Of a DNA stretch of 64,000 bases, positions 22,078-47,856 are shown piece after piece (the stretch's first letter is position 1; every line of letters begins with the position of its first letter). Source of the DNA: an uncultured bacterium. Its GTDB lineage: Bacteria > Zixibacteria > MSB-5A5 > CAIYYT01. The position numbers were made by a program, and so were the translations under genes. The stretch covers positions 64,973 to 128,972 of the forward strand of contig CAVSCK010000005.1 of NCBI GenBank assembly GCA_963726455.1, written 5' to 3'. The notes under the pieces are model-generated. The model was not told the DNA's origin, ran no database searches, and saw only the letters and a program-made list of their open reading frames with translations.

Positions 22078-23076
22078 CTAAAGAATGATTGAGAGCAACA
22101 TGTAGGATGCGACGCCGAAGATTGCCGCACCGGGAATAGTGAAGAACCAAGCCAATACGATATTGCCGATTATCTTCCAGCGGAGATTGCCGAGTCGTCC
22201 GGCGATGGCGGTACCGGCGATAGAGCCGGTGGCGACTTGAGTCGTCGACTTGGGGATGCCGAGCAGGGCTGTTACCAAAATCACTGTCCCCGCCGATGCT
22301 TCGGCAGCGCAGCCGTCCAGAGGTTCGTGCAGCCTGGTCATCTTGTGTCCCATGGTCTTGATAATTCGCCAACCGCCTACCGAAGTCCCAAGTCCAATTG
22401 TGAATGCTGAAGCGATACGAACCCACAGGGGAACATGAAAGGTACTGATCGCTCCCGCAGACAAAAGCGCAATCGTCATTATACCCATGGCATTCTGCGC
22501 GTCGTTCATGCCATGAGCAAGCGACACATAGGCCGCGGAGAGGACCTGAAAGTGCTTGAAGACTTTAGCTGTCGCACGATACGGCAACTTCCAAGCCGCC
22601 CAGGAAAAGATGACTTTCAAGAGCAGGCCGCCGAGCAAGCCGATGAATGGCGCTACAATCATAGCGATACCGATTTTGAGAATTCCGGACATTACAAGTA
22701 TTTGGAAGTCGAAGTGATTTATGAACAGCCCCACTCCGATCAACCCGCCGACAAGGGCGTGAGTCGAGGAAGACGGCAAACCGAAATACCAGGTGAAGTA
22801 CCCCCAAAGCACCGCCCCCGTGACCGCCGCCAAAAGCAAAGGCAGCGTGACGACATTGCTTTCAATCACTCCCTTACCTATCGTGTAAGCCACGGCGGTA
22901 TTGAGCAGGCCACCGACGAAATTCAGGGTGCGTGCCATAATAATCGCCTTGCGGGGCGACATGGCGCGAGTTGCGATTGTCGTGGCGATGGCATTGGCGG
23001 CGTCATGGAAACCGTTGACGAAATCATACATCAATGAAGCCGCTATGATTAGAATCAGGAGAAGCTGATCAGACAT
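22078..23076 (-). CDS. pit: inorganic phosphate transporter, PiT family
   Basis: 332 aa polytopic protein with the duplicated PiT signature GFHDAANAIAT / GMNDAQNAMG. Confidence 0.9.
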   Translation of the reverse strand: MSDQLLLILIIAASLMYDFVNGFHDAANAIATTIATRAMSPRKAIIMARTLNFVGGLLNTAVAYTIGKGVIESNVVTLPLLLAAVTGAVLWGYFTWYFGLPSSSTHALVGGLIGVGLFINHFDFQILVMSGILKIGIAMIVAPFIGLLGGLLLKVIFSWAAWKLPYRATAKVFKHFQVLSAAYVSLAHGMNDAQNAMGIMTIALLSAGAISTFHVPLWVRIASAFTIGLGTSVGGWRIIKTMGHKMTRLHEPLDGCAAEASAGTVILVTALLGIPKSTTQVATGSIAGTAIAGRLGNLRWKIIGNIVLAWFFTIPGAAIFGVASYMLLSIIL

Positions 23077-23828
23077 TCTCGGCTACCAACCGTCTGAGAG
23101 TGCCGGTCAGTTCGGTGCAGGCGTCAATCGAGCGTTCGAGTTCCTCGTAGACCTGCCGCAGAATAAAGAATACGGCTGTGTGTCGCGTGTACTCAACATT
23201 GGCTTTGATAATTGGCAACATCTCTCCGGCGCTTTCGGAAGACTCGAATTGCTTGATACGGTTTTCCAGATTCTGCCGGTCGGCCCGGATCTCCTGAAAG
23301 CGACGACGCAGTCCCTCGTGATATATTTCATCCGCCTGTGTCTCGAGGTGGTCGACGGCGCGGAAATAGGGTTCGATCTTACGATCATGCGGCAAGCGAC
23401 TTGACCGCTTTGGCAATTTCCTCGCAGGCGCGCAGAATTAACGGCGCCAATTCACGCATTTCCTTGTCGCTGGTCGGGAAAGTCGTAGATGACATAGCGG
23501 TTGGCCGCATGGTTGACATGCTTCATAATGCGAAAGGCGTCGTCGTTAAACTGGCTGATCTCGGAGCGGTCGAACGGCGGTTGCTGCGAGCGATTAAGCA
23601 GGTCTTCGATCGATTCATTGATGCGATTACAGGTAGTCAGGCAGGTTTCGATCTTCTTGCCGATGACTTGTCGATCGCTCACCGGTGCGGCACAAAAGAT
23701 TCAACCAGCATGGACTTGCGTCGATCAGGTTGTCCATGGTCTCGTCGAAGAAGCTGATAGAATTCTTTGTCCCGAGGAGGAAGCAACCGGATATTCTTTA
23801 TACTCTTTAGAACATCTAACACACTCAT
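23069..23828 (-). pseudogene. DUF47-family (PhoU-related) phosphate transport regulator, split over three reading frames
   Basis: Three consecutive minus-strand ORF pieces (23679-23906, 23452-23682, 23069-23416) each resemble successive parts of a DUF47 protein; at least two frameshifts. Confidence 0.55.
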
Positions 23829-23951
23829 AATTTCGCCTTCATATTTGATGACCAATTGCTCTGTGGGAATGTTACATCCTGACGATCCGATTTCCCTCGA
23901 TATCAATCACTGTGGTCACCCGTGTCGAGCGAAGAACACCGACCGGTGCGA

Positions 23952-24717
23952 TCAATTCAGCGCCCGAAGATAGCAAAATTGTTGGACGCCAGTCGAACTC
24001 GATTTTGGATGCCAATCCGACAAGACAATCGACGGCGATTGGCAGGCGGTCAGCATAGGACGATTTGCCCCATGGCGGACAATTTCACCGTCGACCATGT
24101 AGATCACGTCTTCGGCAATGTTGGTGGTGTGGTCGGCGATGCGCTCGAGATTGCGGGAAACAGCGAGCATCTGAATGAGCGAGTCCATCCTTTCGGGAGT
24201 CTTGCGAATCTGTCCCTGCACGCACTCGTACATGCTGCGGTTGATCTCATCGACTTCGTCGTCGGCAGCCAGCACCGAATGCGCCAGCTGCCGAATCGAG
24301 ACTTACCAGCGAGTCGAGTGCAGTGTGCAACATGGACTCGACTTTTTCGGACATCTTGGGAAAGTCATACGGATGGACGACCGGCTCCTGCAGCGCCAGT
24401 GACACGGCGCGCTCGGCGATATTGGCGGAGAGATCACCGATCCGCTCCAGATCGTTGTTGATCTTCAGCACGGCGATAATAAACCGCAGATCGATCGCGA
24501 CCGGCTGATGCAACGCCAGAATCTTGAGGCAGTCCTCTTCCACTTCGACTTCCATGTTATCAATCAAGACGTCGTCGTCGACCACGCGGCGCGCCAGTTT
24601 TTCGTCACGGCTGACAATTGATTTCACGGCGCGGTGCAAAGAATCTTCGACCATGGCTCCGAGCGAAAGAATCTTGCGCTTAAGCCGATCAATTTCTCGT
24701 TGTAAATGCTGTGCCAT
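23952..24717 (-). pseudogene. phoU: phosphate signalling complex protein PhoU, interrupted by one frameshift
   Basis: N-terminal half in ORF 24247-24864 from MAQHLQREIDRLK; C-terminal half in ORF 23952-24275 (AADDEVDEINRSMYE...RIADHTTNIAEDVIYMVDGEIVRH); junction between 24247 and 24300. Confidence 0.75.
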
Positions 24718-24766
24718 CTTTCCTTCCCGTAGTTCCTGACGTCGATTGAATGACCTCAGACGATGA

Positions 24767-25591
24767 TCATCCGAACCGGCCGGTGACGTAGTCTTCGGTC
24801 TGCTTCTTGTCCGGCTTGGTGAATATCTTCGGCGTTTCGCCGAATTCCACCATGTGGCCTTCATAGAAGAAGGCCGTATAGTCCGAAATACGCGCCGCCT
24901 GCTGCATATTGTGCGTCACGATCACAATCGTGTATTGCTTTTTCAACTCGGCGATCAGGTCTTCGATCTTGGCGGTCGATATCGGATCGAGCGCCGATGC
25001 CGGTTCGTCCATCAGCAGCACTTCCGGCCGGACAGCCAACGCCCGCGCGATGCAGAGCCGCTGCTGCTGGCCGCCGGAGAGCATGTAGGCGCTGTTCTTG
25101 AGCTTGTCCTTAACCTCTTCCCACAGAAATGCCCTCTTGAGCGTGTCCTCCACCGCTTCACTGATCATCTGCTTGTCGTTGATGCCGTTAACTCGCAGAC
25201 CGTAGGCGACATTGTCGAAGATCGATTTCGGAAATGGGTTCGACTTCTGAAAGACCATGCCGACGCGCGTGCGCACAGTGGAAACATCCCTGATGTCCTG
25301 GTAAATATCGACGCCGTCGAGCTTGACGATGCCTTTCATCCGCGTTCCGGGAATGGTTTCGTTCATCCGATTGAGCGTGCGCAGAAATGTCGACTTGCCG
25401 CAGCCCGATGGGCCGATGAACGCCGTGACGCCGTTTTCCTCGATATCGAGAGACACGTTGTGCAATGCCTGGACGTTGCTGTAGAAGAAGTCCAGCTTGC
25501 GTATTTCGAATTTCACTCTGCCCGGTTGACGCGGCGGATGGCCGCGTGACACCACCGGACGTTCGCTCATTTCCAGTTCTGATTCAACCAC
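24767..25591 (-). CDS. pstB: phosphate ABC transporter ATP-binding protein
   Basis: Walker [13 protein letters not shown] signature LSGGQQQRL, and conserved PstB C-terminus. Confidence 0.95.
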
Positions 25592-26535
25592 TGATTCGCC
25601 TCGACCTAATTTTCGATCTGATCAGTATCGCTACAAAGTTCAGCAGAAATGTCAGCACCAGCAATACCAGCACCGTGCCATAGAGAATCGGTTTGGTCTT
25701 TTCGACATCTGGTGACTGGGTTGACATGACGTAGACATGATACCCCAGTTCCATGAACTGATCGTTGAGCGCCCGGGGTAGATACGGAAGATAGTAGGCG
25801 GCGCCCGTAAACATGATCGGCGCGACTTCGCCCGCGCCACGGCTGATTGCCAAGATCGCGCCGGTGAAGATGCCGGGGAGCGCCTGCGGAATTATCACTC
25901 GAATAATCGTCTGCAGTTTGGTCGCGCCCAGCGCATAGCTGGCGTCCTTGAGTTCGCGGGGAATTGCTCGCAGCGCTTCTTCTGTCGACACAATCACGAC
26001 CGGCAGACGTCAGCAGCGCGAGTGTCAGGGCCGCCCAGATTATCGCCGGTTGTCCCCAAACCGGTTTCTCCGCTCCCAGTAGTCCAGTGTCGATTCCATG
26101 TCCGATAAATCCGATGAAGAACCCCAGACCGAACAATCCGAACACGATTGACGGCACGCCGGCGAGATTGTTGATCGCGGTGCGAATCAGCCGCGTCGTG
26201 CGCGAGGTCGGGCTGGTGTATTCCGATAGGTAGATCGCCGTCAGTACGCCGACCGGAACACCGGTTATGACCATGAGCAGAACCAGGAACACGGTGCCAA
26301 AGATCGCCGGAAAGATACCGCCCGCTTCCATGCCGTCTTTCGGCGGCTGCGTGAGGAATTCCCAACTAATGATGCCGGTTCCGTGCAGCAATACATTGAA
26401 GAGTATAATGCCCAGCATCGCGACAATGATCAGCACCGCCGCCAGTGTCAGGCCTTGCGGAATCAGTCCGCGAGTTTTGGGACGAAATTGCAGTGGAGCC
26501 AGAGTCGGGGCGGTAGCAGTTGAAGGGTTGCTCAT
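25584..26535 (-). pseudogene. pstA: phosphate ABC transporter permease PstA, interrupted by one frameshift
   Basis: First ~178 aa of ORF 25606-26535 are PstA-like up to ...AALTLALLT, then nonsense; ORF 25584-25997 continues in another frame with IVSTEEALRAIPRELKDASYALGATKLQ; junction near 25997-26010. Confidence 0.8.
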
Positions 26536-27491
26536 GACGTCCTCCCCTGCAATCTGGTTTTGAGCCGTCCCAGGATGACTTCGCCGCCCAGATTAGTCAC
26601 GAACGTGAACAAGAACAGTACCGTGCCGATGAAGAAGAGCACAGAATAATGTGTGCTGCCGAAAACAACTTCCGCGAGTTCGGCAGCGATCGTCGCCGAA
26701 AGAGTGCGCGCCGAATCAAGGAAGCTCGCGGACACAATCGCGGCATTGCCGGATGCCATCAATACGATCATCGTCTCACCAATCGCTCGGCCAAAACCGA
26801 GCACGATTCCGGCGGCAATACCGGGAAGGGCCGCAGGCAACACCATCGTAAACGAAACCTGCCAGGGATTCGCTCCCAACGCTCGCGCGGCATCACGCAA
26901 CGATTGCGGCACCGAGGTCATCGCATCTTCGGCGACAGTGAAGACGATCGGAATGATCGCCAGACCGAGAGCAATGCCGGCATTTAGCACGTTCAGGCGA
27001 TAGGTCAAACCCAGTGTCTTCTGCAAGACGGTCGCCAAGACAATCAGCGCGAAGAAGCCCAATACCACCGAGGGAATGCCGGCGAGGAGTTCGATCACCG
27101 GTTTGATGATTTCCCGCATTCGTTTGGAGGCAAATTCCGCGGAGTAGATTGCAGCGCCGACAGCAAGCGGCGTCGCGAATAACATGGCGATGATTGCGGC
27201 CTTGATCGTGCCCAGCATCAGAGGCCAGAGCGAATACTTGGGCACTTCCGAATTCGGCTGCCAGCTCCATTTCGCGGGCTTGTCCTTCTGAAACTGCTGT
27301 TTGAACGTCATCTTGTCGAGACTGGCTTCCTGCTGAGCATCGGCTGACGTGAAAATCGGAGCGGCTTCCTTGAAGATGAAAATGAAGATTAGCAGTATCG
27401 CTATCAGCGCCACGAATGCGTTTACCGCAATGAACTTCTCACCGAGAAATTCCCGCCAACGCGATTTGGGCTTGAACTGATAAGGCGTCAT
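26532..27491 (-). CDS. pstC: phosphate ABC transporter permease
   Basis: 319 aa, six TM helices, permease core EAA-like loop; position between pstS and pstA. Confidence 0.9.
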   Translation of the reverse strand: MTPYQFKPKSRWREFLGEKFIAVNAFVALIAILLIFIFIFKEAAPIFTSADAQQEASLDKMTFKQQFQKDKPAKWSWQPNSEVPKYSLWPLMLGTIKAAIIAMLFATPLAVGAAIYSAEFASKRMREIIKPVIELLAGIPSVVLGFFALIVLATVLQKTLGLTYRLNVLNAGIALGLAIIPIVFTVAEDAMTSVPQSLRDAARALGANPWQVSFTMVLPAALPGIAAGIVLGFGRAIGETMIVLMASGNAAIVSASFLDSARTLSATIAAELAEVVFGSTHYSVLFFIGTVLFLFTFVTNLGGEVILGRLKTRLQGRTS

Positions 27492-27501
27492 ATTGCGATC
27501 C

Positions 27502-28326
27502 TCATTTCACCGGCAGCGGCACAAAGCCGGCCTTCTGTGCGAGGGCCTGGCCTTCAGACGACAAAACCCAATTCACGAAATCCCTAACTTCACCAGACGG
27601 GTCGCCATTGAGAAGAAAACAGAGGTCGCGAGCAATCGGATAGACACCGAGTGTTACATTTTCAACAGTCGGCGTCACGGGCTGCGCAGTGTCATTTTCG
27701 CTTATCGCTGCATACTTGATACCACTGGCCCAGGCAATGCCGCCATACCCGATACCGTTGGGATCGTGAGCGACTGCATGAACTACTGACGCCGTACCCG
27801 GCAACGGCTCACAGCGTTCGGCGAAATCCTCGCCGCCCAGGATGCGATCCCGAAAGAAAGTAAATGTGCCCGAATTGTTTTCGCGGCCGTAGAGGATGAT
27901 CGGATTGTCCTTGCCGCCAAGTTGGTTCCAGTTGTTGATGCTGTCGGTATAGATTTCGCGAAGCTGCTCGATTGTCAGATCACGAATCGGATTTTCTTTG
28001 TTGAGATAGACAGCAACGCCATCACGAGCAACCGCAAACCGCCGGAGATCGATTCCTTTCGCCGACATCATCTGTGTTTCCTGAGCAGACAGTTCGCGCG
28101 AGGTCATACAAATCTTGGTCGAACCGTTGACCAGCGCCGCGATTCCCGATGACGATCCGCCGCCGGAGACCTGAATCACTGTTTCTTTGTGATTCTTCAT
28201 GTAGTCCTCGGCCCAGCGCTGGCAGAGGCGAACCATGGTGTCCGAACCCTTAATAGTGATTTGCCCCGCGGATGCCATCTGAGACACGAGTAGAACACAC
28301 ACAGCGACAACAAGCACCCTCTTCAT
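27502..28326 (-). CDS. pstS: phosphate-binding periplasmic protein
   Basis: Signal peptide; PstS-like motifs (GSDTM, GGGSSSG, SRELS). Confidence 0.9.
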   Translation of the reverse strand: MKRVLVVAVCVLLVSQMASAGQITIKGSDTMVRLCQRWAEDYMKNHKETVIQVSGGGSSSGIAALVNGSTKICMTSRELSAQETQMMSAKGIDLRRFAVARDGVAVYLNKENPIRDLTIEQLREIYTDSINNWNQLGGKDNPIILYGRENNSGTFTFFRDRILGGEDFAERCEPLPGTASVVHAVAHDPNGIGYGGIAWASGIKYAAISENDTAQPVTPTVENVTLGVYPIARDLCFLLNGDPSGEVRDFVNWVLSSEGQALAQKAGFVPLPVK

Positions 28327-28364
28327 CAGTGATTCCCTTGCATAAAGGAAGTAACGACTCGGAA

Positions 28365-28382
28365 TGTTAGGATTTTGTTAGG
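28365..28382 (-). promoter_or_regulatory. Pho-box-like tandem direct repeat upstream of pstS
   Basis: On the minus strand CCTAACA-AAAT-CCTAACA: two 7-mers at 11-bp periodicity, about 40 nt upstream of the pstS ATG. Confidence 0.5.
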
Positions 28383-28423
28383 AATCAGTAAGATGTCGAC
28401 AAAGCGCGAATTTGGGGCAAGGA

Positions 28424-29800
28424 TTACTTCGATGGCAGATGGATTGTGAACGTGCTTCCCTGCCCCACTTTACTGTCTACGCTCAGCGTTCCGTTGTGTG
28501 CGATCACAATATGCTTTGATATCGCCAATCCGAGCCCGGTGCCGCCTTCGGCACGGCTGCGAGATTTGTCGACGCGGTAAAATCTTTCAAACAATCGCGT
28601 CAGATGTTCCGGTGCAATGCCACAACCCTGATCGCGGACGGCGATAGTTACGGAACTCTCGCCGCGTGCAGCGGCGACATCTATCCTTTTCCCCGGCTCA
28701 CTGTATTTCACCGCGTTATCAATCAGATTAATGACCGCCTGTTCAAGCAGCGGTTGATTTGCGCGCACGCGGAGATCTTCGGGACAGGACAAGGTAACGG
28801 AAATGTGCTTAGCGCTCGTGAGTGAATCACAGGCGGTAATGGCTGCCGCCAGAATGCTCCTTAGCCCGACCGGCTGCAGTACGATCTGGCCCCGTTCGGC
28901 ATCCTGTTCGATTCGTGACAGCCTGAGTAAGTCTTCGATTATGTTCTGCAACCGTGCCGCCTGCTTGCCGATGATTTCAAGAAACCGGCGCGACTCCACA
29001 GGGTTCTCCAGCGAACTGTCAAGCAAGGTCTCAATGTAGCCCTTGATCGAAGTGATCGGGGTTTTCAATTCGTGAGACACATTAGCGACAAATTCACGCC
29101 GCAGGTTTTCGAGTTTGCGTATGCGAGTGACATCATTGAGTACGATCAGTGCGCCGAGCCGTGCGCCAGAATTACTTCGCATGGCTGTGCCCGTCACCTG
29201 CAAGTATCGCTCGTCTCTGCCTGCCAGAATTATGTCTCCTTCTGCTGCCACATCCAGCGTCAGTGCCCGGCCTACCAATTTCTGTAGTTCGGCATGACGC
29301 ACCGTATCCTGAAGAGTGCGTCCGACGGTTGCCTTGAGATCGACATCGAACATCCGCGCAGCCGACTGATTGATGCTGACGATCTTTTCATCCGCGTCGA
29401 CAACCAGAACGCCTTCGATCATGTTCGCGGTGATCGTGTGGTATTCCTGGCTCTGCTGCGACAACACTCCGGAACGCGCGGCGAGCTGCTCAGCGATGCT
29501 ACTTAGCGAGTCCGCTACTTCATCCAGTTCCGAAATGCCCGAGTGCAAAGAGTAGGTGTCGTATTCGCCGTTGGCGATGTGTTTTGTCTTCTGCTTTAGC
29601 TGCGTTAACGAGCGCGATAGCCGGCGTGACACGATGATGCCGGTTACAATCGCGGTTGCCAGAACCAGGCAGAGAATGGTGACGAGCACGCTCAGTGAGA
29701 CGGGCGCGGATACTGCGACAATTACCGTTGCCGCTATCACGACCAGTGCGATCAGCAGAAACGGCCGCATAAATCGCCAGAACGTTCGATCGTGGAGCAT
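28424..29800 (-). CDS. phoR: phosphate regulon sensor histidine kinase
   Basis: 458 aa; two N-terminal TM helices, PAS-like region, HisKA H-box (VSHELKTPITSI) and HATPase_c domain; directly downstream of phoB. Confidence 0.85.
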   Translation of the reverse strand: MLHDRTFWRFMRPFLLIALVVIAATVIVAVSAPVSLSVLVTILCLVLATAIVTGIIVSRRLSRSLTQLKQKTKHIANGEYDTYSLHSGISELDEVADSLSSIAEQLAARSGVLSQQSQEYHTITANMIEGVLVVDADEKIVSINQSAARMFDVDLKATVGRTLQDTVRHAELQKLVGRALTLDVAAEGDIILAGRDERYLQVTGTAMRSNSGARLGALIVLNDVTRIRKLENLRREFVANVSHELKTPITSIKGYIETLLDSSLENPVESRRFLEIIGKQAARLQNIIEDLLRLSRIEQDAERGQIVLQPVGLRSILAAAITACDSLTSAKHISVTLSCPEDLRVRANQPLLEQAVINLIDNAVKYSEPGKRIDVAAARGESSVTIAVRDQGCGIAPEHLTRLFERFYRVDKSRSRAEGGTGLGLAISKHIVIAHNGTLSVDSKVGQGSTFTIHLPSK

Positions 29801-29802
29801 GG

Positions 29803-30489
29803 CTATTCCTTGAGCTTGTAGCCGACACCGCGGACGGTCTCGATAACCGCGCCCTGGATTCCCAGTTTGCGGCGCAAACCCACAATCTGCACGTCGACCG
29901 CGCGGTCGGTTACGATGGTCTCTTCACCATGGATTTCGTTGACGATTTGATAGCGGCTGAATACCCAGCCGGGATGGCGAGCGAGCAAATGCAGTATCTC
30001 AAATTCGGTCAGCGTCAACTCGACCGGTCTGCCCGCCAGCGTAACCTGATGACGTCCCGGATCAATCACTATGTCGTGGACTCTCAGCGTGGCGCCGTCC
30101 TTAACGTCCTTGCCTCCCTTGCGACGCAGGGCCGCGCGCACGCGCGCAATCAGGACTTTCGGGCTGAACGGCTTGGTGATGTAATCGTCCGCGCCAACTT
30201 CCAGGCCGGTGATGACATCGCTTTCTTCGCTCTTGGCGGTCAGCATGATTATCGGTATACGCTGAGTCTTCGAATCATTCTTGAGAATCTTGCAGACATC
30301 GAGGCCGTCGATTCCCGGCAGCATCAAATCGAGAATGATGAGATCAGGCAGATTATTGCGCGCTGCCTTCAAGGCCGCCTCACCGGTCGCGGCGCCGGCC
30401 ACACGATATCCCTCCTTGCCGAGGTTGAATTTGATAAGTTCGAGAATGTCTTCTTCATCCTCGACTACCAGAATCATTTCCTTAGCCAT
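29803..30489 (-). CDS. phoB: phosphate regulon response regulator (OmpR/PhoB family)
   Basis: Receiver domain (DLIILDLMLPGIDG) plus winged-helix output domain. Confidence 0.9.
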   Translation of the reverse strand: MAKEMILVVEDEEDILELIKFNLGKEGYRVAGAATGEAALKAARNNLPDLIILDLMLPGIDGLDVCKILKNDSKTQRIPIIMLTAKSEESDVITGLEVGADDYITKPFSPKVLIARVRAALRRKGGKDVKDGATLRVHDIVIDPGRHQVTLAGRPVELTLTEFEILHLLARHPGWVFSRYQIVNEIHGEETIVTDRAVDVQIVGLRRKLGIQGAVIETVRGVGYKLKE

Positions 30490-30599
30490 ACCGATCCCTT
30501 TACGACCTCCGAACGATGCTCAATTGACAATATAGTACTGCGACGGCAACGTTCAACATTAACTCTACCTCCCTGAAGTTAGTTTTCTACCAGCAATTT

Positions 30600-30617
30600 G
30601 TTAGAGAATCGTTAGAA
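30600..30617 (-). promoter_or_regulatory. Pho-box-like tandem direct repeat upstream of phoB
   Basis: On the minus strand TTCTAAC-GATT-CTCTAAC, sharing the CTAAC core and 11-bp periodicity with the pstS site. Confidence 0.4.
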
Positions 30618-30659: not shown

Positions 30660-31715
30660 TTAGCAAATGCGCGGCAATTGCTCGCCGGAAAGCATATCAA
30701 CGATGCGGGTGGAACCGATCGCATTGGTCATCGTAACAAGGCCGGATTGATCCGCAGTCGTACTTCCGATGATGGCTGCGGCCGCGCTGACAGACTGAGA
30801 ACGCAGGGCCGACAGAGCGCGTTCAGCATCGCGCTCCGGCACAAACGCAACAAAGCGTCCTTCGTTGGCAACGTAGAGTGGATCGAGCCCGAGCAGCTCG
30901 CAAGCACTTCGTACCGGTTCACTGATCGTAATTGACTGCTCCTGAATGTGCACTCCGAGCTTGGCCGATTGCGCGATTTCATTCAGGGAGCTCGCCAGGC
31001 CGCCGCGGGTGAGATCGCGCAGACAGTGTACTGCAATTCCCGCAGCCAGAAGCGCCTGCACCGCATTGTGCAAAGGTGCACAATCGCTGGTGATTGTTGT
31101 CTCAAACTTCAGCCCCTCCCTCTGCGCCATGATCGCGATTCCATGCCGGCCTATGTCGCCGGAGAGAATTATGGCATCTCCCGCGCACACAGTTGCTGGA
31201 GCTATGCTCAGAGAATGTTCAATGATGCCGATTCCGGCTGTGTTGGTATAGATGCCGTCGCCTTTGCCGCGATCAACAACCTTGGTGTCACCGGTAACGA
31301 CCTGCACGTTTGACTCAGCAGCGCTGGCTTTGATGGACTGCATGACACGTTCAAGAGTCTCCACCGGCAGGCCTTCCTCTAGGATCAGCCCCAGACTCAG
31401 GTAAAGTGGTTTCGCGCCGGCCATCGCCAGATCATTGATCGTACCGTTGACCGCCAGTGTGCCGATATCACCGCCCGGGAAGAACAGCGGACTTACGACA
31501 TACGAATCCGTCGTGAATGCCAGCCGTTGCCCGCCGATTTCAAACACGCTCGCGTCATGGCACGATTGCAGCATCTTGTTGTCCAACGCGGGAAGAATGA
31601 CGTTGTCAAGCAACTGATGCATCAATCTGCCACCACCACCATGTGCCAGTAATATCTGTTCATAATTCGATAACGGCGTCGGGCACGAAAGTAATATGTT
31701 ATTATCATCCGGCAT
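30660..31715 (-). CDS. hypE: hydrogenase expression/formation protein HypE
   Basis: ATG 31715; AIR-synthase-like fold, conserved C-terminal ...PRIC. Confidence 0.9.
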
Positions 31716-31726
31716 GATGTGTCTGC

Positions 31727-32836
31727 CTAACCTTTCGTCTTGTTCTGAACCGTGATACCACGGTAACGGTAATAGGCAGCACAGGCGCCCTCGGAGGACA
31801 CCATAGTAGCACCGAGCGGATGTTCCGGCGTGCATTTGCTGCCGAACACGGGACAGTCATGCGGCTTCTTGATTCCTTGCAGGATTACGCCACTGATACA
31901 ATCTTTCGATTCCTCGACTTTGCGATCGGTCAATTTGAACCTGGTTTCGGCATCGTAGGCGCGGTATTCGCCACGCAATGCCAGGCCGCTGTTGCCGATC
32001 TCACCGATGCCCCGCCACTTGCGCGGGACGATTTCAAACACCTCTTTCAGCAACTTCTGCGCGGGAACATTGCCCTCGCGAGTCACCAAGCGACTGTATT
32101 GATTCTCCACTTCGCAACTTCCGGCTTCAAGTTGAGTGACGCACATCAGGATGCCCTGCAAGATATCGATTGGCTCGAAACCGGTGACGACAATTGGCAC
32201 GCGATACTTCATGGCAATCGGCTCGTACTCATGATAACCCATCACGGTACACACGTGCCCGGCGGCGAGAAATCCCTGCACTTGATTATTCGGCGATCCG
32301 AGTATCGCCTCGATTGCAGGCGGAACCAGAACTTGCGACACCAGAAGCGAGAAATTCTTCACGTTTCGTTGCTGCGCTTGCACGACTGTCATACCAATTG
32401 CGGGAGCGGTCGTTTCAAAACCGACGGCAAAGAAGACTACTTGTCTCTCCGGATTCTTTGTCGCTAACTCAAGCGCATCCAGCGGTGAATACACGACGCG
32501 CACGTCAGCACCCGCTGCCTTGACACTGAGCAAGTCACACCGTGATCCCGGTACGCGCAGCATATCTCCAAACGAACACAAGATCACTTCGGGCTGCGCC
32601 GCAATCTCAATCGCCTTGTCGATCAATTCAATGGGCGTCACACAGACCGGACAACCGGGTCCGTGAACAAGAGTAATCTGTGGCGGCAGTAATTCGTCAA
32701 TTCCGAAACGGACAATCGCGTGCGTCTGCCCGCCACATATTTCCATGATCGTCCAGGGTTTGGTGACGACGGCGGCGATTTGATCGGCCAATTTATGCGC
32801 TGAGGCGGCATCGCGATATTCATCAACGAATTTCAC
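31727..32836 (-). CDS. hypD: hydrogenase formation protein HypD
   Basis: 369 aa; motifs GPGCPVC and CTVMGY; C-terminal Cys cluster. Confidence 0.9.
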
Positions 32837-33087
32837 TGTGACTCCTCGCTGCGGGCGTCGGCTTCATCCATTTCTCGCAGATATTGAAACACTTTCTGCG
32901 CTTCGTCCTCGTCAATGATATTGAGCGCGAATCCGACATGGATCACCACGTAATCGCCAATCTTTACCTCCGGGACGTAACACAGATTCACATCTTTGAT
33001 CACGCCGCCGAAATCCACCCTGCCTGTCCGAAACACGGGATCATCGCCCGTAATGCTGATCACTTTTCCCGGAACTGCGAGACACAT
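32833..33087 (-). CDS. hypC: hydrogenase assembly chaperone HypC
   Basis: Starts MCLAVPGKV (conserved Cys2), ~84 aa. Confidence 0.85.
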
Positions 33088-33092
33088 TTGCG

Positions 33093-35420
33093 TTAATTCC
33101 TTCTTGTTGTTCGCGCTGCGGCCACAATCTGACCCAGTGCGATGCCGCCGTCGTTGGGTGGAATCCGCTGATGCCAATAGGGCTGGAATCCTTCGGCGCG
33201 CAGTCGTGCAATAACATGCTCAGTCAGATACCTGTTTTGAAAACTACCGCCGCTAATCACAATTCTCTGCTGCCCGAATTCTCTCGCTACCGCAATCATC
33301 ATTTCGACCAGTGCGTTGTGAAACTTCGCGGCAGGGACCGACACCGGTGTGCCGTTGTCCCTCTCGGCAAGAACGCTCTCGACGAGCGGTTGCCAGTCCA
33401 CAATGAATGTAGTCTCGTTCTTGACAATTTCAAACGGATAGGATTCATCCGTTTGCGCGTCACCGATTGCGAATTCCAGCGCCATTGCCGCCTCGCCCTC
33501 GAACGTAGCTCGTTGACAAAGTCCAAGCAAAGACGCAACGGCATCAAACAGTCGCCCGGCGCTTGATGTCAGAGGTGCGTTGAGTTGCCGGCTGAGCATA
33601 CCCCGCATTACCGAAAGTTCGGAACTGTTGAATACTATCGTCTTCAGGAGATCGCCCCTGTCGAACATCCGTTCTCCGTACAATTCAAACAACACTCCCA
33701 GCGCCGACCGGCGCGGTTCACGGATTGCGGAATCTCCGCCCGGCAATGGAAACGTTCTCAAATGTGCTACTCGCCTAAAATTCGTGTCGTTGATCTGCAG
33801 AAATTCTCCACCCCAGATTGACCCATCCGGGCCGAGACCGGTGCCATCCCAGGCGATACCCAACACCGGTGCTTCGACTTCATTGTCCGCCATGCAACTC
33901 AAGATATGTGCGTATTGATGCTGTACGGTTAGGACAGGAACCACATATTCGTGTGCCTTGCGAGTCGAGAGATAATCGGGGTGAAGATCACACGCGACAA
34001 CTTCGGGCGTGACGTCATATAAAGCAGGCAAATCTGTGAGCACATTAACGAAAGCCTCATAGGCCTCTGCCGTTTCCAAGTCTCCGATATGTTGGCTGAC
34101 GAAAACGTCCCGCCCCAGCGACAACGCCACGCTGTTCTTAAGCTGTGCTCCGACTGCGATGGCTGACGGCAAGGAATGACTCAGCGTTATCGGCAGTGGC
34201 GCGTACCCACGGGCGCGACGGGTAACCTGCTCGCGGCCTGCCACGATTCGCACGATTGAATCATCGACATGACGCCTGATCGGCCGGTCGTGCACCAGAA
34301 ACGAATCGGCAATCTCTGCAAGCCGACGCAGCGCCTCGAATTCGTCGGTGCATATTGGTTCTTCCGCCAAATTGGCGCTGGTTGCTACGACCGGAAATCC
34401 AAGCTCTTGCATCAACAAGTGGTGCAGTGGTGTGTAAGGCAGCATGACGCCCAGGTATGGATTGCCGGGTGCAACATCGGGGTCGACCAGAGCAGCGCCG
34501 CGTAGTCTGCGTAACAAAACGATCGGCGACTCAACTGAGGTCAGCGAACATTGTTCAATCGCGCTCAGTTCACATGCTTCTTCTACCGATTCCAGTGTCG
34601 GAAACATCAGGGCGAACGGTTTGGCGCTGCGATGCTTTCGTTCGCGCAGCCGCATTATCGCGTCGCGATTGCGCGCGTCGACCATCAAATGAAATCCGCC
34701 GAGGCCTTTAACCGCGACAATATCGCCCGCCTTGATAGCATCTGCGGCCGCCAGCAGTGCTTCATCCTTGCGTGCCTGAACTGCACCGCCACCGTCCCAC
34801 CATTCCAGTTGCGGGCCGCAGTCGGGACAGGCATTCGGTTGTGCATGGAAACGCCGGTCCGAAGGATTCTCGTACTCTTCCCGGCAGAGCTGACACATGA
34901 CGAACTTCTTCATCGTCGTGTTGGCCCGGTCATACGGCAGCGACTCAATAATCGTGTATCTCGGCCCGCAGTTGGTACAATTCGTGAACGGATAGCGAAA
35001 GCGGCGGTTGCTCGGATCACGAATATCGCCGAGGCAGTCGGGGCACGTGGCAATATCCGGCAAGACATAGGCCGACTTACCGCCAGTCGCCACGCTGGCG
35101 CGGATTTCGAAAACTGAATAACCAACGGGATCGAGTTGCGACACTTCGCAACTCTGCACAAAGGCGCGTGGCGGTAACTCCGATATCAGACGCTTGCGAA
35201 ACATATCCAGCGCTTCTTGTGACGCCTCGATTTCGATAATCACTCCCTGCGAAGTGTTGGTGACGTAACCCCGCAATTCCAGATCCTGCGCCAGCCGATA
35301 TACGAACGGCCGAAATCCGACGCCCTGCACGGCGCCACGAATAGCAAATCGCAGCCGCTGCTGCTCATACTTCGGTATTGACTGTGCGGATTTCGGAATC
35401 ATACTGTTCATGCGCGGCAA
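33093..35420 (-). CDS. hypF: carbamoyltransferase HypF
   Basis: 775 aa; acylphosphatase domain, two CxxC zinc fingers, YrdC and Kae1-like domains. Confidence 0.95.
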   Translation of the reverse strand: MPRMNSMIPKSAQSIPKYEQQRLRFAIRGAVQGVGFRPFVYRLAQDLELRGYVTNTSQGVIIEIEASQEALDMFRKRLISELPPRAFVQSCEVSQLDPVGYSVFEIRASVATGGKSAYVLPDIATCPDCLGDIRDPSNRRFRYPFTNCTNCGPRYTIIESLPYDRANTTMKKFVMCQLCREEYENPSDRRFHAQPNACPDCGPQLEWWDGGGAVQARKDEALLAAADAIKAGDIVAVKGLGGFHLMVDARNRDAIMRLRERKHRSAKPFALMFPTLESVEEACELSAIEQCSLTSVESPIVLLRRLRGAALVDPDVAPGNPYLGVMLPYTPLHHLLMQELGFPVVATSANLAEEPICTDEFEALRRLAEIADSFLVHDRPIRRHVDDSIVRIVAGREQVTRRARGYAPLPITLSHSLPSAIAVGAQLKNSVALSLGRDVFVSQHIGDLETAEAYEAFVNVLTDLPALYDVTPEVVACDLHPDYLSTRKAHEYVVPVLTVQHQYAHILSCMADNEVEAPVLGIAWDGTGLGPDGSIWGGEFLQINDTNFRRVAHLRTFPLPGGDSAIREPRRSALGVLFELYGERMFDRGDLLKTIVFNSSELSVMRGMLSRQLNAPLTSSAGRLFDAVASLLGLCQRATFEGEAAMALEFAIGDAQTDESYPFEIVKNETTFIVDWQPLVESVLAERDNGTPVSVPAAKFHNALVEMMIAVAREFGQQRIVISGGSFQNRYLTEHVIARLRAEGFQPYWHQRIPPNDGGIALGQIVAAARTTRRN

Positions 35421-35438
35421 TTGCGCCCGGAAAGAAGT

Positions 35439-35945
35439 TTAGACCGTCTCTGTGAACGCCATCTCGTTGAGATCGTTCATAACCCGCGCGACCACGTCGT
35501 TGACCGCACTCACCACCGATTGCGTCAGTCCGTTGCCTGCGGAAAAATCGGCCCCCTCGATACCGTAAACCACCAACCGTTCCGGCAATCGCCCGAGTGC
35601 GCGCGCCAACTCCACGGCCTCAGCGACACTGAAGGCATGCGTGGAGTAATTGAAGAAATCGCTCGGAATTGGAACCCGGGCGGCATCAAATCGATAGATG
35701 AGTCCCGGCGTTGACGACGATTGTGCTGCGTCTATGATGATAACTGTATCTGCTTCGCCAAAACGCTCCAACAGTGACACGCCCTCACCTGAATGGACGA
35801 CGGCGTTTACGCGCGGCAGTGTCAGCGCCGCGATTCGGTTCGCAACCGCAATACCGGCAGCGTCATCGTGTCGGAACTCGTTGCCGACCCCAATTACCAA
35901 AGCAGTGTTGCGCCGGACGGTCGAGTCGTCATCAGTCGCCGCCAT
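35439..35945 (-). CDS. hydrogenase maturation endopeptidase
   Basis: 168 aa; LVIGVGNEFRHDDAAG motif. Confidence 0.8.
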   Translation of the reverse strand: MAATDDDSTVRRNTALVIGVGNEFRHDDAAGIAVANRIAALTLPRVNAVVHSGEGVSLLERFGEADTVIIIDAAQSSSTPGLIYRFDAARVPIPSDFFNYSTHAFSVAEAVELARALGRLPERLVVYGIEGADFSAGNGLTQSVVSAVNDVVARVMNDLNEMAFTETV

Positions 35946-35951
35946 TTTGCA

Positions 35952-37244
35952 TCACCGCCTGTCGATCTTCAGTTTCAGGAAATGTGTCGCGCAGGAAATG
36001 CACGGATCATAGTTGCGCACCGCCTGCTCGCATTGCCAGGTCAGATTCTCGTCCGACAGATGGATATGCCGTGGCACGAATTCCGCCAGATCATTCTCGA
36101 TTGTCTTTTGGTTCTGCGATGTCGGCGGCACGATCTTGGCCTCGGTTATCTTGCCTTTTTCGTCGACACGATACCGATGATAGCAGATACCGCGGGGTGC
36201 TTCCGAGCAGCCGCATCCGACCCCGGCGCGTTTCTTAAATTCGACTGCCGGTTTCTCCGGCTTCTCATAATTTGCGATAATTCGTAATGCCTCATCACAG
36301 GCATAGACCGTCTCAATGCTGCGCACGATTATGCCTTTGAAGGGATTGCGACAGCTATTGCCCAGGCCGACCTCTCTGGCGACCTGCTGCGGCACCGGCG
36401 ACAGTCGGTCGAAATTGAGATTGAAGCGCGCCAACGGCCCCACGAAGTAAGCGCCACGCGCTCTGATTACGGAGTGTAGAGCGTGAGAATGCTTGACGTG
36501 CTCCTCCGCAAAATGCTGCTCGTACTCCTTGATCTCGATATCCAGCCCGCGATTCGACACCAGTCGTCCTTCGATGAGTGGATACTCATCCGGATGCCGC
36601 ATGGCGACGAATTCGTAGTCACGCTCAAAATCCGGAAACTTGAAGGTCGCCACCCATTTTGACGTTTCGATTGCGGCATCGCGAGCCCATTTGAGTTCCT
36701 CCGCGATCGAAGCCAATTGCGACTTTTCCGGCGCCTTGTAGAATCCGCCGACGCGCACGTTGATCGGATGAATTTCGCGTCCGCCAATCAGCGTCATAAG
36801 ATCATTCCCGCATTTCTTGAGGCGCAGACCCCGCTTGACGATGTCGGGATAATCCTTCGCCAGTTGAATGGCGTCGGGATAGCCAAGGAAATCAGGCGCG
36901 TGCAGCATGTAGATATGCAGCGCGTGGCTTTCGATCCACTCGCCGCAGTATATTAGGCGCCGCAGCGCGCGTAGTTGTCCATCGACCGTGACACCGAATA
37001 TCTGTTCCATCGCGCTCACCGCGCTCATTTGATAGGCAATCGGGCAGATTCCGCAGATGCGTGCGGCAATGTCGGGCGCTTCGGCATAATGACGGCCACG
37101 CATAAATGCCTCGAAGAAACGCGGCGGTTCGAAAATCTTCAGTTTCACGTCTTCCACGCGGTCGTCTTTGATCTTCACATAGAGCGATCCTTCGCCTTCG
37201 ACTCGCGCCAGATAATCGACCTTGATCGTTCTGCTATCTTTCAT
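35952..37244 (-). CDS. hydA: [NiFe]-hydrogenase large (alpha) subunit, group 3b-like
   Basis: N-terminal RICGICP and C-terminal DPCISCATH nickel-binding motifs; 430 aa. Confidence 0.93.
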
Positions 37245-46026: not shown

Positions 46027-47856
46027 TTACACCGGCGGGCAGGCAGCGCATGGCACCGGTCCCCCGCCAAATATGTATTGAATAAGGTACACCGCGTCCG
46101 CGATGTCGATCGACTTGTCACAGTTGGGATCCCCGGCTGTGGCTGTGACCGGCGCCGGTCCCCCCGCAAAAATGTAATTTATGAGGTAGACCACGTCGGC
46201 GATATCGACTCCACCGTCACCGTTGGCGTCGCCGCAAGTGAATTCAACCAGAGTAGTCCCCCACCAAGTGCCCCAGCGCGTGTCAGCAGGGTTCGGTCCA
46301 ACCGGTGTCGCCGCATATTCCTGAATCGTCCAGAAGCTGGTGCTATCCTTGGGGTCTACGACTGTGGCACTAAAATCCCCCCAGCGAACCTCAGTTCCGC
46401 CGAAGGTCTTGGTATAGATGCCCTCGCCGGCCTTGATCGTTGCCACGGTGCTCGTCGTCCCGATTGGATCGGTTGACCTGCGGCCGGTGTAAGCCGCTTC
46501 GACAAAGATGTTGGGATTCGAATGCGAGAACCCGAGAAAGACATCATTCCCGGAATTGACTGCAATACTGGGAAAGAACAGAAAGTCATTCGTGCCCATA
46601 TCAACCACGCCCGATTGCACAATCGGATTCGGTAGCGTCGCCGGATCGAGTTCATACCAGAAGACGGAAACGTGGTTGGGAGAATTCACCGGCAGGCCTG
46701 CACTGTGCGTGCACCAAATCCTGCCGTTACGGAAGACGGCATTGAGCATACGCGAATCGTTGGTTGACACCAGTGTGGCTGTGCCCTGTTGCTTGGCGTC
46801 TGGCTGATTATTCGAGAAATTATGTGCTACCGAGAATAACCCCGAGCCGCCAATCGTCGAACCAGGCACAGCGGCCCAAACCGGCGCCGGTCCCGTACCG
46901 GTGATTTGTGTCAATCTGAGGAGAGCTACTCCTCCCGAGGTGAATCCGGCATTATCGACCAGATATAGTGTCGGCTCATTACCGAATGTCTGACAGACGC
47001 GAAGCGCGAAACCTGAACCGACATTGCCGAAATTGTCTGATCCCACCGGAAAACTCGTGAAGGTCAACGGTCCCCCGGCAAGCGCCGTCGATTTTTCAAT
47101 TACCCACATCGACGTTCCGGAGAAAGTATTCCCCGTCACTTTGAACATGTTGGCCGTAATGGCAATCCAGGTTCCATTATACCCGATGTCCGGATAATCA
47201 GCCCAGCTAATGTGCGAGGTGTCCGCAGGTATGCGGTAGAATTTCCAGGTCCCCATCGGATTGGCGCTGTCGCTGACCGCCATCACCACAGCGGAATTCA
47301 CGGTTTGGAAGTCCGCGATGGACGACGCATACCAACGGTTGACGCTCGGGTCGTACAGAACGTGGGGATCACTAACATTGGTCGAACCCGTTGGCGACCA
47401 GAATGTCGGATAGGAGATTGTACTCAGGATATTCCCAAACTTGTCCTGCACCCTGATTTGTGAATTCAGCATCGTCATCACCCGGTTCAGACTTACGGCG
47501 CCGTGCGAATCCGGAGGGATCACGTGAAGGTTATCGGGCAAGGCCTGGAAATTTCTGACTACCGGCGGCACCTGCATCGGCGAAAGAAATTGCTCTGTCC
47601 CCAGACTCCCTGCACTACCCAACTTACCCAGTGGCCCACCAACCTCTCTCGGCGCCGGCATCAGCAATAGCGGTTTTACTTCCTGCACCTCCGCGGTCTT
47701 TGCCAGCGGTGCCCTCGCCTCCATGTTCTCCAAGTCCTGCCAGCTCACCTGAGCTACCGGATCAATCTGCATTTGTTGTCCGGAGACGCCAAAACTTGCC
47801 GCAGTCAGCAACAGTATTAGAACGAGCGTCGCCCGCGACGTTTGCCATATCGACAT
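46027..47856 (-). CDS. secreted protein of unknown function (paralog of 48164-50620) with C-terminal dockerin-like tandem module
   Basis: ATG 47856 with AAGGAG upstream; signal peptide; ~500-aa N-terminal domain shared with the next gene (...RWGDFSATVVDP...WGTWWGTT); C-terminus CGDANGDGGVDIADVVYLINYIFAGG...[32 protein letters not shown]. Confidence 0.6.
   Translation of the reverse strand: MSIWQTSRATLVLILLLTAASFGVSGQQMQIDPVAQVSWQDLENMEARAPLAKTAEVQEVKPLLLMPAPREVGGPLGKLGSAGSLGTEQFLSPMQVPPVVRNFQALPDNLHVIPPDSHGAVSLNRVMTMLNSQIRVQDKFGNILSTISYPTFWSPTGSTNVSDPHVLYDPSVNRWYASSIADFQTVNSAVVMAVSDSANPMGTWKFYRIPADTSHISWADYPDIGYNGTWIAITANMFKVTGNTFSGTSMWVIEKSTALAGGPLTFTSFPVGSDNFGNVGSGFALRVCQTFGNEPTLYLVDNAGFTSGGVALLRLTQITGTGPAPVWAAVPGSTIGGSGLFSVAHNFSNNQPDAKQQGTATLVSTNDSRMLNAVFRNGRIWCTHSAGLPVNSPNHVSVFWYELDPATLPNPIVQSGVVDMGTNDFLFFPSIAVNSGNDVFLGFSHSNPNIFVEAAYTGRRSTDPIGTTSTVATIKAGEGIYTKTFGGTEVRWGDFSATVVDPKDSTSFWTIQEYAATPVGPNPADTRWGTWWGTTLVEFTCGDANGDGGVDIADVVYLINYIFAGGPAPVTATAGDPNCDKSIDIADAVYLIQYIFGGGPVPCAACPPV

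What the first reader, a model, noticed from the sequence alone, without database searches (positions are those of the whole stretch)
28365..28382. Pho-box-like direct repeats with a CTAAC core upstream of pstS and phoB
Upstream of pstS the minus strand reads CCTAACA-AAAT-CCTAACA; upstream of phoB (30600-30617) it reads TTCTAAC-GATT-CTCTAAC. Both are two 7-mers at 11-bp periodicity, the architecture of PhoB binding sites, but the repeat unit differs from the enteric CTGTCAT consensus. This suggests a lineage-specific Pho box.
Basis: partly seen in the sequence, partly recalled or inferred. Interest (0 to 1): 0.45.

Follow-up and report, generated by a model that had tools for sequence, protein, structure and literature searches.

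The report
Variant Pho box (CTAAC repeats)
The repeated CTAAC words in front of the phosphate-uptake gene pstS and the regulator gene phoB are very likely real docking sites for the phosphate-starvation regulator PhoB, and this variant of a well-known switch is shared by many poorly studied bacterial phyla.

Summary
CTAAC-N6-CTAAC occurs exactly twice in 64 kb (0.01 expected by chance). Both copies are on the coding strand, upstream of pstS and of phoB, within a phoB-phoR-pstSCAB-phoU cluster. Each site has a further repeat in 11-bp phase.

Among 80 distantly related phoR loci, CTAAC at period 11 is the top-ranked direct repeat upstream of phoB and pstS. It also precedes phosphate-selective porins, phoU and a Na/Pi cotransporter. 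A TANNNT hexamer sits exactly 10 nt downstream in 10 of 28 sites, which is the classical Pho-box/-10 arrangement.

A blind metagenome scan with the DNA pattern alone found core Pho genes downstream in 12 of 46 cases.

The associated PhoB proteins have lost Arg200/Arg201 and Thr194 of the E. coli recognition helix, including the arginine that reads the guanine of TGTCA.

So this is a genuine Pho box. It is not specific to one narrow lineage. It spans about ten phyla and differs by one base per half-site from the experimentally mapped Desulfovibrio vulgaris PhoB box (yGTAAC). I rate it a new variant of a known kind, of modest interest. No binding experiment exists.

The parts
28366..28392 (-). 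pstS Pho box. Three direct repeats in 11-bp phase: CTTAC (28392-28388), CTAAC (28381-28377) and CTAAC (28370-28366). The proximal repeat ends 39 nt before the pstS ATG.
   Evidence: The same position and orientation are seen in pstS orthologs.
28349..28354 (-). Candidate -10 hexamer of the pstS promoter, TTACTT, 11 nt after the proximal repeat. It is a weak match and this assignment is inferred.
   Evidence: Sequence. Assigned by analogy with the N10-TANNNT rule seen in orthologous sites.
30578..30615 (-). phoB Pho box array. Four 11-bp phased positions: CTAAC (30615-30611), CTAAC (30604-30600), degenerate ctggt (30593-30589) and CTAAC (30582-30578).
   Evidence: Boxes upstream of phoB orthologs are shown.
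30584..30589 (-). Candidate -10 hexamer TAGAAA, exactly 10 nt after the second repeat.
30562..30567 (-). Alternative -10 hexamer TAGAGT, exactly 10 nt after the fourth-position CTAAC. This would be the -10 box if two PhoB dimers occupy the whole array.
30529..30556 (-). Sigma-70-like promoter TTGAAC-16-TATATT downstream of the Pho box. It may be a basal phoBR promoter. It is a consensus match only.
29803..30489 (-). phoB, an OmpR/PhoB-family response regulator. Its recognition helix is DRAVDVQIVGLRRKL, compared with DRTVDVHIRRLRKAL in E. coli.
   Evidence: TIGR02154, 253 bits, full length.
28424..29800 (-). phoR, the sensor histidine kinase.
   Evidence: PnpS, 393 bits; phoR_proteo, 330 bits; both full length.
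27502..28326 (-). pstS, the phosphate-binding protein and first gene of the pst operon.
   Evidence: TIGR02136, 221 bits, above the curated cutoff.
23952..27491 (-). pstC (26532-27491), pstA (25584-26535, frameshift near 26007), pstB (24767-25591) and phoU (23952-24717, frameshift near 24290). These are presumably transcribed from the pstS promoter.

Best explanation
The CTAAC repeats are Pho boxes, meaning tandem head-to-tail binding sites for phosphorylated PhoB.

The inferred mechanism runs as follows. Under phosphate limitation, PhoR phosphorylates PhoB. PhoB dimers then bind the 11-bp-spaced CTAAC half-sites, which lie where a -35 element would be, 10-11 nt upstream of a TAnnnT-type -10 box. 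From there PhoB recruits the sigma-70 RNA polymerase holoenzyme. This switches on pstSCAB-phoU and positively autoregulates phoBR.

The half-site differs from the enteric CTGTCAT because this PhoB belongs to a multi-phylum clade with an altered recognition helix. That clade has lost Arg201 (the residue that hydrogen-bonds the guanine of TGTCA in E. coli), Arg200 and Thr194. It keeps Val197 and the wing residue Arg219, so the tandem binding geometry is preserved.

Shown here: the non-random occurrence, the conservation across phyla, the association with Pho genes, the fixed spacing to a -10-like hexamer, and the altered helix. Inferred: actual binding by PhoB, activation rather than repression, induction by phosphate starvation, and which residue reads which base.
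For: - Two exact dyads against 0.01 expected, both on the coding strand upstream of pstS and phoB.
- Extra in-phase repeats at both sites.
- In an unbiased dyad enumeration, CTAAC at period 11 ranks first upstream of phoB and pstS orthologs, about 56-fold over background.
- Boxes with at most one mismatch occur at 0.71 per kb in non-ORF DNA against 0.03 per kb in ORF DNA, and in 34 of 62 loci. They are upstream of 12 of 17 pstS and 18 of 51 phoB orthologs.
- Genes downstream of the box in other phyla are PhoB, PstS, Porin_O_P, Porin_5, PhoU and a Na/Pi cotransporter.
- TANNNT starts exactly 10 nt after the proximal repeat in 10 of 28 sites, against 0.56 per offset on average. This matches the E. 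coli rule quoted in PMC1906773.
- In the blind metagenome pattern scan, 12 of 46 downstream ORFs are core Pho genes, against 2 of 40 divergent control ORFs.
- The PhoB helix is altered at the base-contacting residues, with contacts taken from PMC3973317.
- The experimentally determined D. vulgaris PhoB sites are yGTAAC at the same period.
Against: - There is no experimental binding or expression data for this organism or for any CTAAC-box organism.
- The pstS -10 candidate is weak (TTACTT, at a gap of 11).
- Only 35% of phoB orthologs in the clade show a box with at most one mismatch, so autoregulation is not universal or the motif is more degenerate than modelled.
- TAACA-type half-sites are also used by other OmpR-family regulators, for example the ArcA-like motif of Riemerella PhoP. 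Sequence alone therefore does not prove which regulator binds.
- pstA and phoU are frameshifted in this sequence, so the operon the box controls may not be fully functional, or the sequence may contain errors.
Confidence: 0.85

Rival explanations
1. The repeats are bound by a different OmpR-family response regulator (ArcA-, ResD- or RpaB-like) that happens to control phosphate genes. PhoB would then recognise some other sequence.
For: TAACA or TGTTA direct repeats at 11 bp are also the half-site type of other family members. The Riemerella 'PhoP' DAP-seq motif TTTAACA is described as ArcA-like.
Against: The box travels with phoBR itself and with pstS, phoU, phosphate porins and a Na/Pi transporter across about ten phyla. 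It is found where PhoB has the altered helix and is nearly absent from loci with the classical helix. The experimentally mapped D. vulgaris PhoB site is the near-identical yGTAAC.
Confidence: 0.07
2. The repeats are PhoB sites but act mainly as operators for repression or negative feedback, not for activation.
For: In the phoB region the array overlaps one -10 candidate (TAGAAA), and a third CTAAC lies downstream of it. A separate sigma-70-like promoter lies further downstream. E. coli phoB is reported to combine positive and negative autoregulation (title and abstract of PMC6194859, seen).
Against: The sharply peaked 10-nt distance to a -10-like hexamer, with no -35 element, is the class II activation geometry. 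Under this model pstS, the archetypal induced gene, would have to be repressed by the starvation regulator.
Confidence: 0.06
3. The two dyads are a chance or compositional coincidence with no function.
For: None beyond the short length of the core (10 specified bases).
Against: The shuffle expectation is 0.01 against 2 observed. There are extra in-phase repeats, conservation across phyla at orthologous positions, and recovery of Pho genes in the blind scan.
Confidence: 0.01

Closest known systems
Escherichia coli Pho box (CTGTCAT-N4-CTGTCAT; PhoB-DNA structure 1GXP)
   Same: Both have tandem direct repeats at 11-bp periodicity in the -35 position, 10 bp upstream of a TAN3T/A -10 box. Both lie upstream of pstS and of phoB itself. 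Both are read by an orthologous PhoB/PhoR pair (44% identity). Val197 and the wing residue Arg219 are conserved.
   Different: The half-site is CTAAC(A), not TGTCA(T). The guanine contacted by Arg201 is replaced by C, and the C at position 5 by A. The regulator carries T194A, H198Q, R200V and R201G. The window's PhoB scores below the curated TIGR02154 cutoff (253 against 296 bits).
Desulfovibrio vulgaris Hildenborough PhoB (DVU1083) box, (c/t)GT(n)AC repeats, mapped by DAP-chip and EMSA (PMC3333781)
   Same: The periodicity is the same and the half-site nearly so: CCGTAACA against CCCTAACA. The sites lie upstream of phoB, pstS (DVU2477) and a PhoU-family gene. GTAAC also appears as the weaker third repeat in several loci here.
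   Different: The first core base is G in Desulfovibrio and C here. The Desulfovibrio motif also tolerates C or G at the third core base (GTCAC, GTGAC), which makes it intermediate towards the E. coli box. I could not determine whether DVU1083 has the altered or the classical recognition helix.
Synechocystis SphR Pho box (CTTAACCT, at least three 8-bp repeats with 3-bp linkers; PMC1906773)
   Same: It has 11-bp tandem repeats with a TAAC core and often three repeats, as at the window's pstS site.
   Different: It reads CTTAAC, not C-CTAAC. According to that paper, the E. coli DNA-contact residues are highly conserved in SphR, unlike here.
Bacillus subtilis PhoP box, TT(A/T/C)ACA repeats (from my own knowledge, not verified in a paper here)
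   Same: TAAC(A) core and about 11-bp spacing. The Clostridium loci in my set carry TTTAAC-N5-TTTAACA repeats.
   Different: The first core base is T, not C. It belongs to a Gram-positive regulator with a different helix (RTVDVHIRHLR in the Clostridium loci).

Membership tests
Pho box (PhoB/PhoP operator) | Two or more direct repeats with 11-bp (one helical turn) periodicity | tested here: met
   There are three in-phase repeats at pstS, and three of four phased positions at phoB. Period 11 is the only enriched spacing in orthologs.
Pho box (PhoB/PhoP operator) | Located upstream of Pho-regulon genes, in the coding orientation | tested here: met
   In the window it lies upstream of pstS and phoB. 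In orthologs and blind-scan hits it lies upstream of pstS, phoB, phoU, Porin_O_P, Porin_5, a Na/Pi cotransporter and pstC.
Pho box (PhoB/PhoP operator) | Occupies the -35 position, about 10 bp upstream of a -10 hexamer (TAN3T/A) | tested here: met
   TANNNT lies at a gap of exactly 10 in 10 of 28 sites, against 0.56 expected per offset. Window phoB has CTAAC-N10-TAGAAA and CTAAC-N10-TAGAGT. Window pstS has only a weak TTACTT at a gap of 11.
Pho box (PhoB/PhoP operator) | A cognate PhoB/PhoR two-component system is encoded | tested here: met
   Full-length PhoB and PhoR lie immediately adjacent.
Pho box (PhoB/PhoP operator) | Bound by phosphorylated PhoB, and the target genes are induced by phosphate starvation | not testable with these tools
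   This needs EMSA, footprinting, DAP-seq or expression data.
Enteric-type Pho box (CTGTCAT consensus) | The half-site matches CTGTCAT, including the guanine read by Arg201 | tested here: not met
   The half-site is (C)CTAAC(A). PhoB has Gly at the Arg201 position.
Desulfovibrio-type PhoB box (yGTnAC) | The half-site matches yGTnAC at an 11-bp period | tested here: inconclusive
   Four of five core bases match (xTAAC). The leading G is C in both window sites and in the cross-phylum consensus, although GTAAC occurs as an auxiliary repeat in some loci.

The most novel reading that the evidence does not exclude
A large, multi-phylum PhoB subfamily has swapped the Arg200-Arg201 pair and Thr194 of the recognition helix for small or hydrophobic residues, and has co-evolved a CTAAC half-site in which the Arg201-contacted guanine is replaced. 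It includes Planctomycetota, Verrucomicrobiota, Desulfobacterota, Myxococcota, Spirochaetota, Hydrogenedentota, Latescibacterota and others. On this reading the CTAAC box is the previously undescribed, dominant Pho operator of much of uncultured Gram-negative diversity. It would also be a natural example of co-evolution between a transcription factor and its operator, and it would allow Pho regulons to be predicted directly from metagenomes.
Probability: 0.45. Interest if true: 0.5.

Novelty: new variant of a known kind. Interest (0 to 1): 0.33.

Why it matters
Pho boxes are the handle by which phosphate-starvation regulons are predicted. Using the enteric consensus in these phyla would find nothing. 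A validated CTAAC-N6-CTAAC(A)-N9/10-TAnnnT model would allow Pho regulons to be read from MAGs of planctomycetes, verrucomicrobia, sulfate reducers and candidate phyla that matter for environmental phosphorus cycling. The matching change in the PhoB helix (loss of Arg201 alongside loss of the contacted guanine) gives a simple, testable specificity-switch hypothesis. Conceptually, though, it is one more lineage variant of a well-understood mechanism.

Tried and rejected
- A codon-usage frame-plot to count frameshifts across the window gave no usable signal and was dropped. Integrity was judged from profile coverage instead.
- Looking up the window's source by exact PhoR sequence found nothing on record. 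The best GTDB relative is only 51% identical, so the organism remains unidentified. A T9SS sorting-tail protein hints at the FCB group.
- Full-text searches for 'Pho box' with CTAAC or GTTAG, and with the names of the relevant phyla and genera, found no description of this box. The library is limited to open-access papers.
- The EMBO J paper on the PhoB-sigma4 complex was not held. Residue contacts were taken from PMC3973317 instead.
- A within-phylum contrast (classical-helix Chthoniobacterales against altered-helix Verrucomicrobiota) gave no exact dyads in the classical group and is uninformative.
- The one-mismatch hit at 47372-47387 lies inside an ORF on the opposite strand. I treat it as chance, since 1.4 such hits are expected.
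- No box precedes the pit/DUF47 genes.
- The position matrix was trained on exact dyads, so its core columns are fixed by construction. Only the flanks and spacer are informative.

Full report
**1. The observation**

On the minus strand, 28382-28365 reads CCTAACAAAATCCTAACA and 30617-30600 reads TTCTAACGATTCTCTAAC.

NCBIfam identifies a minus-strand cluster: phoB (29803-30489), phoR (28424-29800), pstS (27502-28326), pstC, pstA, pstB and phoU. hypE ends just upstream, at 30660. The first site therefore lies in the 97-bp phoR-pstS spacer, and its proximal repeat ends 39 nt before the pstS ATG. The second lies in the 170-bp hypE-phoB spacer, about 110 nt before the phoB ATG.

Exact CTAAC-N6-CTAAC occurs at these two places and nowhere else in 64 kb on either strand. 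The shuffle mean was 0.01, and none of 100 shuffles reached 2. The window holds only 38 CTAAC pentamers in all.

Both sites are larger than described:
- pstS has a third in-phase repeat, CTTAC (28392-28388).
- phoB has a third perfect CTAAC (30582-30578), exactly two periods downstream of the second repeat, with a degenerate ctggt at the phased position in between.

**2. Conservation**

A scan of one genome per GTDB species with the PhoR protein returned 80 loci. The best is only 51% identical. They are mostly MAGs of Verrucomicrobiota, Planctomycetota (Pirellulales, Phycisphaerae, Sedimentisphaerales, Brocadiia), Desulfobacterota and other 'delta-proteobacteria', Myxococcales, Spirochaetota, Hydrogenedentota, Latescibacterota, Calditrichota and others.

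The exact motif recurs in many of them at the same two positions and in the same orientation.

To avoid circularity, I enumerated every 5-mer direct repeat at periods 7 to 15 in the 300 nt upstream of phoB and pstS orthologs:
- CTAAC at period 11 ranks first, with 15 hits in 28 kb against 12 in 1.26 Mb of remaining sequence. The overlapping word TAACA at period 11 ranks second.
- With at most one mismatch allowed, the box occurs at 0.71 per kb in non-ORF DNA against 0.03 per kb in ORF DNA. It is present in 34 of 62 loci.
- It lies upstream of 12 of 17 pstS and 18 of 51 phoB orthologs in the coding orientation, against about 0.02 expected per region.

**3. Regulon content**

I took the first ORF downstream of every exact hit in the related loci, whatever it was. 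Apart from PhoB and PstS, these ORFs are phosphate-selective porins (Porin_O_P twice, Porin_5 twice), PhoU (twice), a Na/Pi cotransporter with a PhoU domain, and a second PstS-like binding protein.

As a reverse test, I scanned public metagenome contigs for the DNA pattern alone (CTAAC-N6-CTAACA-N9-TANNNT, 14 specified bases). I then looked at the longest ORF starting within 250 nt downstream:
- Of 46 sites with an ORF of at least 60 aa, 11 encode PstS (4), PhoB (4), PhoU, PstC or a Na/Pi cotransporter.
- Pfam adds one Porin_O_P, making 12 of 46 (26%).
- Divergent control ORFs gave 2 of 40, one of which is a generic ABC-ATPase hit.
- The remaining downstream ORFs are a scatter of unrelated families, as expected for chance matches to a short pattern.

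**4. Promoter anatomy**

In 28 non-redundant exact sites, a TANNNT hexamer starts exactly 10 nt after the proximal CTAAC in 10 cases. The mean over all offsets is 0.56. This matches the rule quoted for E. coli, where the Pho box lies 10 bp upstream of the -10 consensus TAN3T/A (PMC1906773).

| Window site | Arrangement |
|---|---|
| phoB, option 1 | CTAAC-N10-TAGAAA (30589-30584) |
| phoB, option 2 | last CTAAC-N10-TAGAGT (30567-30562) |
| phoB, further downstream | sigma-70-like TTGAAC-16-TATATT (30556-30529), possibly a basal promoter |
| pstS | only a weak TTACTT, at a gap of 11 |

At phoB, either one or two PhoB dimers may be used.

**5. The regulator**

The window's PhoB aligns over its full length with E. 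coli PhoB at 44% identity. The E. coli DNA-binding domain I used was checked against PDB entry 1GXP.

According to PMC3973317, which summarises the 1GXP structure:
- Arg201 makes the base-specific hydrogen bond to guanine.
- Thr194 and Val197 contact thymines.
- Arg219 reads the spacer between half-sites.

Here the helix is DRAVDVQIVGLRRKL, which means T194A, H198Q, R200V and R201G. Val197 and Arg219 are kept.

The 60-odd closest orthologs share [DE]R[SA][VI]DV[QH][IVM][VALT][GSAN]LR[KR]K. More distant hits (Clostridia, Actinomycetota, Chthoniobacterales) have the classical xRTVDVHI[RSK][RH]LR and almost no CTAAC boxes. The four PhoB proteins recovered by the blind DNA scan also lack the Arg-Arg pair.

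Aligning half-sites gives E. coli C-T-G-T-C-A-T, D. vulgaris C-C-G-T-A-A-C-A, and this window C-C-C-T-A-A-C-A. The guanine that Arg201 reads is the base that has changed. That residue-to-base link is my inference and has not been shown.

**6. Comparison with what is known**

It is well established that Pho-box consensus sequences differ between lineages, for example E. coli CTGTCAT and Streptomyces GTTCACC (review PMC4415409).

The nearest described boxes are:
- **D. vulgaris PhoB (DVU1083).** Sites mapped by DAP-chip and EMSA include CTGTAACAGCCCCGTAAC, CCGTAACCATTCCGTAAC and, at pstS, CCGCAACCGTTCCGTAAC (PMC3333781 and its Table S7). These share the period and four of the five core bases.
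- **Synechocystis SphR.** CTTAACCT.
- **Bacillus-type TTAACA** (from my own knowledge). It is mirrored by TTTAAC repeats in my Clostridium loci.

I found no paper describing a CTAAC box, or any Pho box for planctomycetes, verrucomicrobia or related phyla. The searchable library is limited to open-access texts.

**7. Verdict**

The feature is real and is best explained as a PhoB operator that drives phosphate-starvation induction of pstSCAB-phoU and autoregulation of phoBR. My confidence is about 0.85, and what remains uncertain is the lack of any binding or expression experiment.

It is a new sequence variant of a well-known kind, paired with a distinct PhoB helix type, and it is widespread, not confined to one lineage. 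Interest is modest. It is useful for regulon prediction in uncultured phyla and as a tidy specificity-switch hypothesis, but it is not mechanistically surprising.

**8. Caveats**

- Ortholog start codons were estimated from tblastn offsets.
- The ORF mask is crude.
- The position matrix was trained on exact dyads.
- The organism is unidentified.
- pstA, phoU and the DUF47 gene upstream of pit carry frameshifts in this sequence, while neighbouring genes are intact. Whether this is local sequence error or gene decay is unknown.

Noticed in passing
window 23072-26535 (minus strand): There is a cluster of frameshifts confined to phosphate genes. pstA is broken near 26007 by an extra T in a non-homopolymer context. 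phoU is broken near 24290, with its two PhoU domains in different frames. The DUF47/PhoU_div gene upstream of pit (23072-23832) is broken at least four times. The flanking genes pit, pstB, pstC, pstS, phoR, phoB, hypDEF, clpB, tgt and prs are intact. This could be local assembly error or pseudogenisation.
   Followed up: partly
window 30529-30615 (minus strand): The phoB leader holds a third perfect CTAAC in exact helical phase, downstream of one -10 candidate. It has two alternative N10-TAnnnT arrangements and a separate sigma-70-like TTGAAC-16-TATATT promoter. This layout could combine positive and negative autoregulation with basal expression.
   Followed up: partly
window 30660-37244 (minus strand): A [NiFe]-hydrogenase maturation cluster lies immediately upstream of phoB: hypE, hypD, a probable hypC, hypF, a HycI-type protease and a partial match to the NiFeSe large subunit. 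The last hyp gene ends only 45 nt from the distal Pho-box repeat.
   Followed up: no
window 3265-5451 (+): A 728-aa protein has fn3/Ig-like domains and a Por_Secre_tail (type IX secretion) sorting domain. This suggests an FCB-group organism, although the nearest PhoR relatives are PVC and candidate-phylum MAGs at no more than 51% identity. The source lineage is unidentified.
   Followed up: no
L015:2727-2742 and L016:313-328 (minus strand of the loci): In two Phycisphaerae loci, an exact CTAAC dyad with flanking TTAAC/TTAAT repeats points away from phoB, towards a divergent ORF. In L015 this ORF is 335 aa with no Pfam match, so it is a candidate uncharacterised Pho-regulon gene. More generally, 9 of 51 phoB upstream regions carry a box in the reverse orientation.
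   Followed up: no
L063:1117-1132, L064:1066-1081, L065:881-896, and about 1905-2007 in the same loci: Three Clostridium species conserve a CTAAC-N6-CTAAC dyad overlapping a TTAGC/GCTAA palindrome-like stretch. About 900 bp away they also conserve TTTAAC-N5-TTTAACA repeats (Bacillus-type PhoP box). Neither was assigned to a downstream gene.
   Followed up: no
window 47372-47387 (+): A one-mismatch dyad, CTAACATTGGTCGAAC, lies inside a 654-aa ORF on the opposite strand. It is consistent with chance, since 1.4 such hits are expected.
   Followed up: yes
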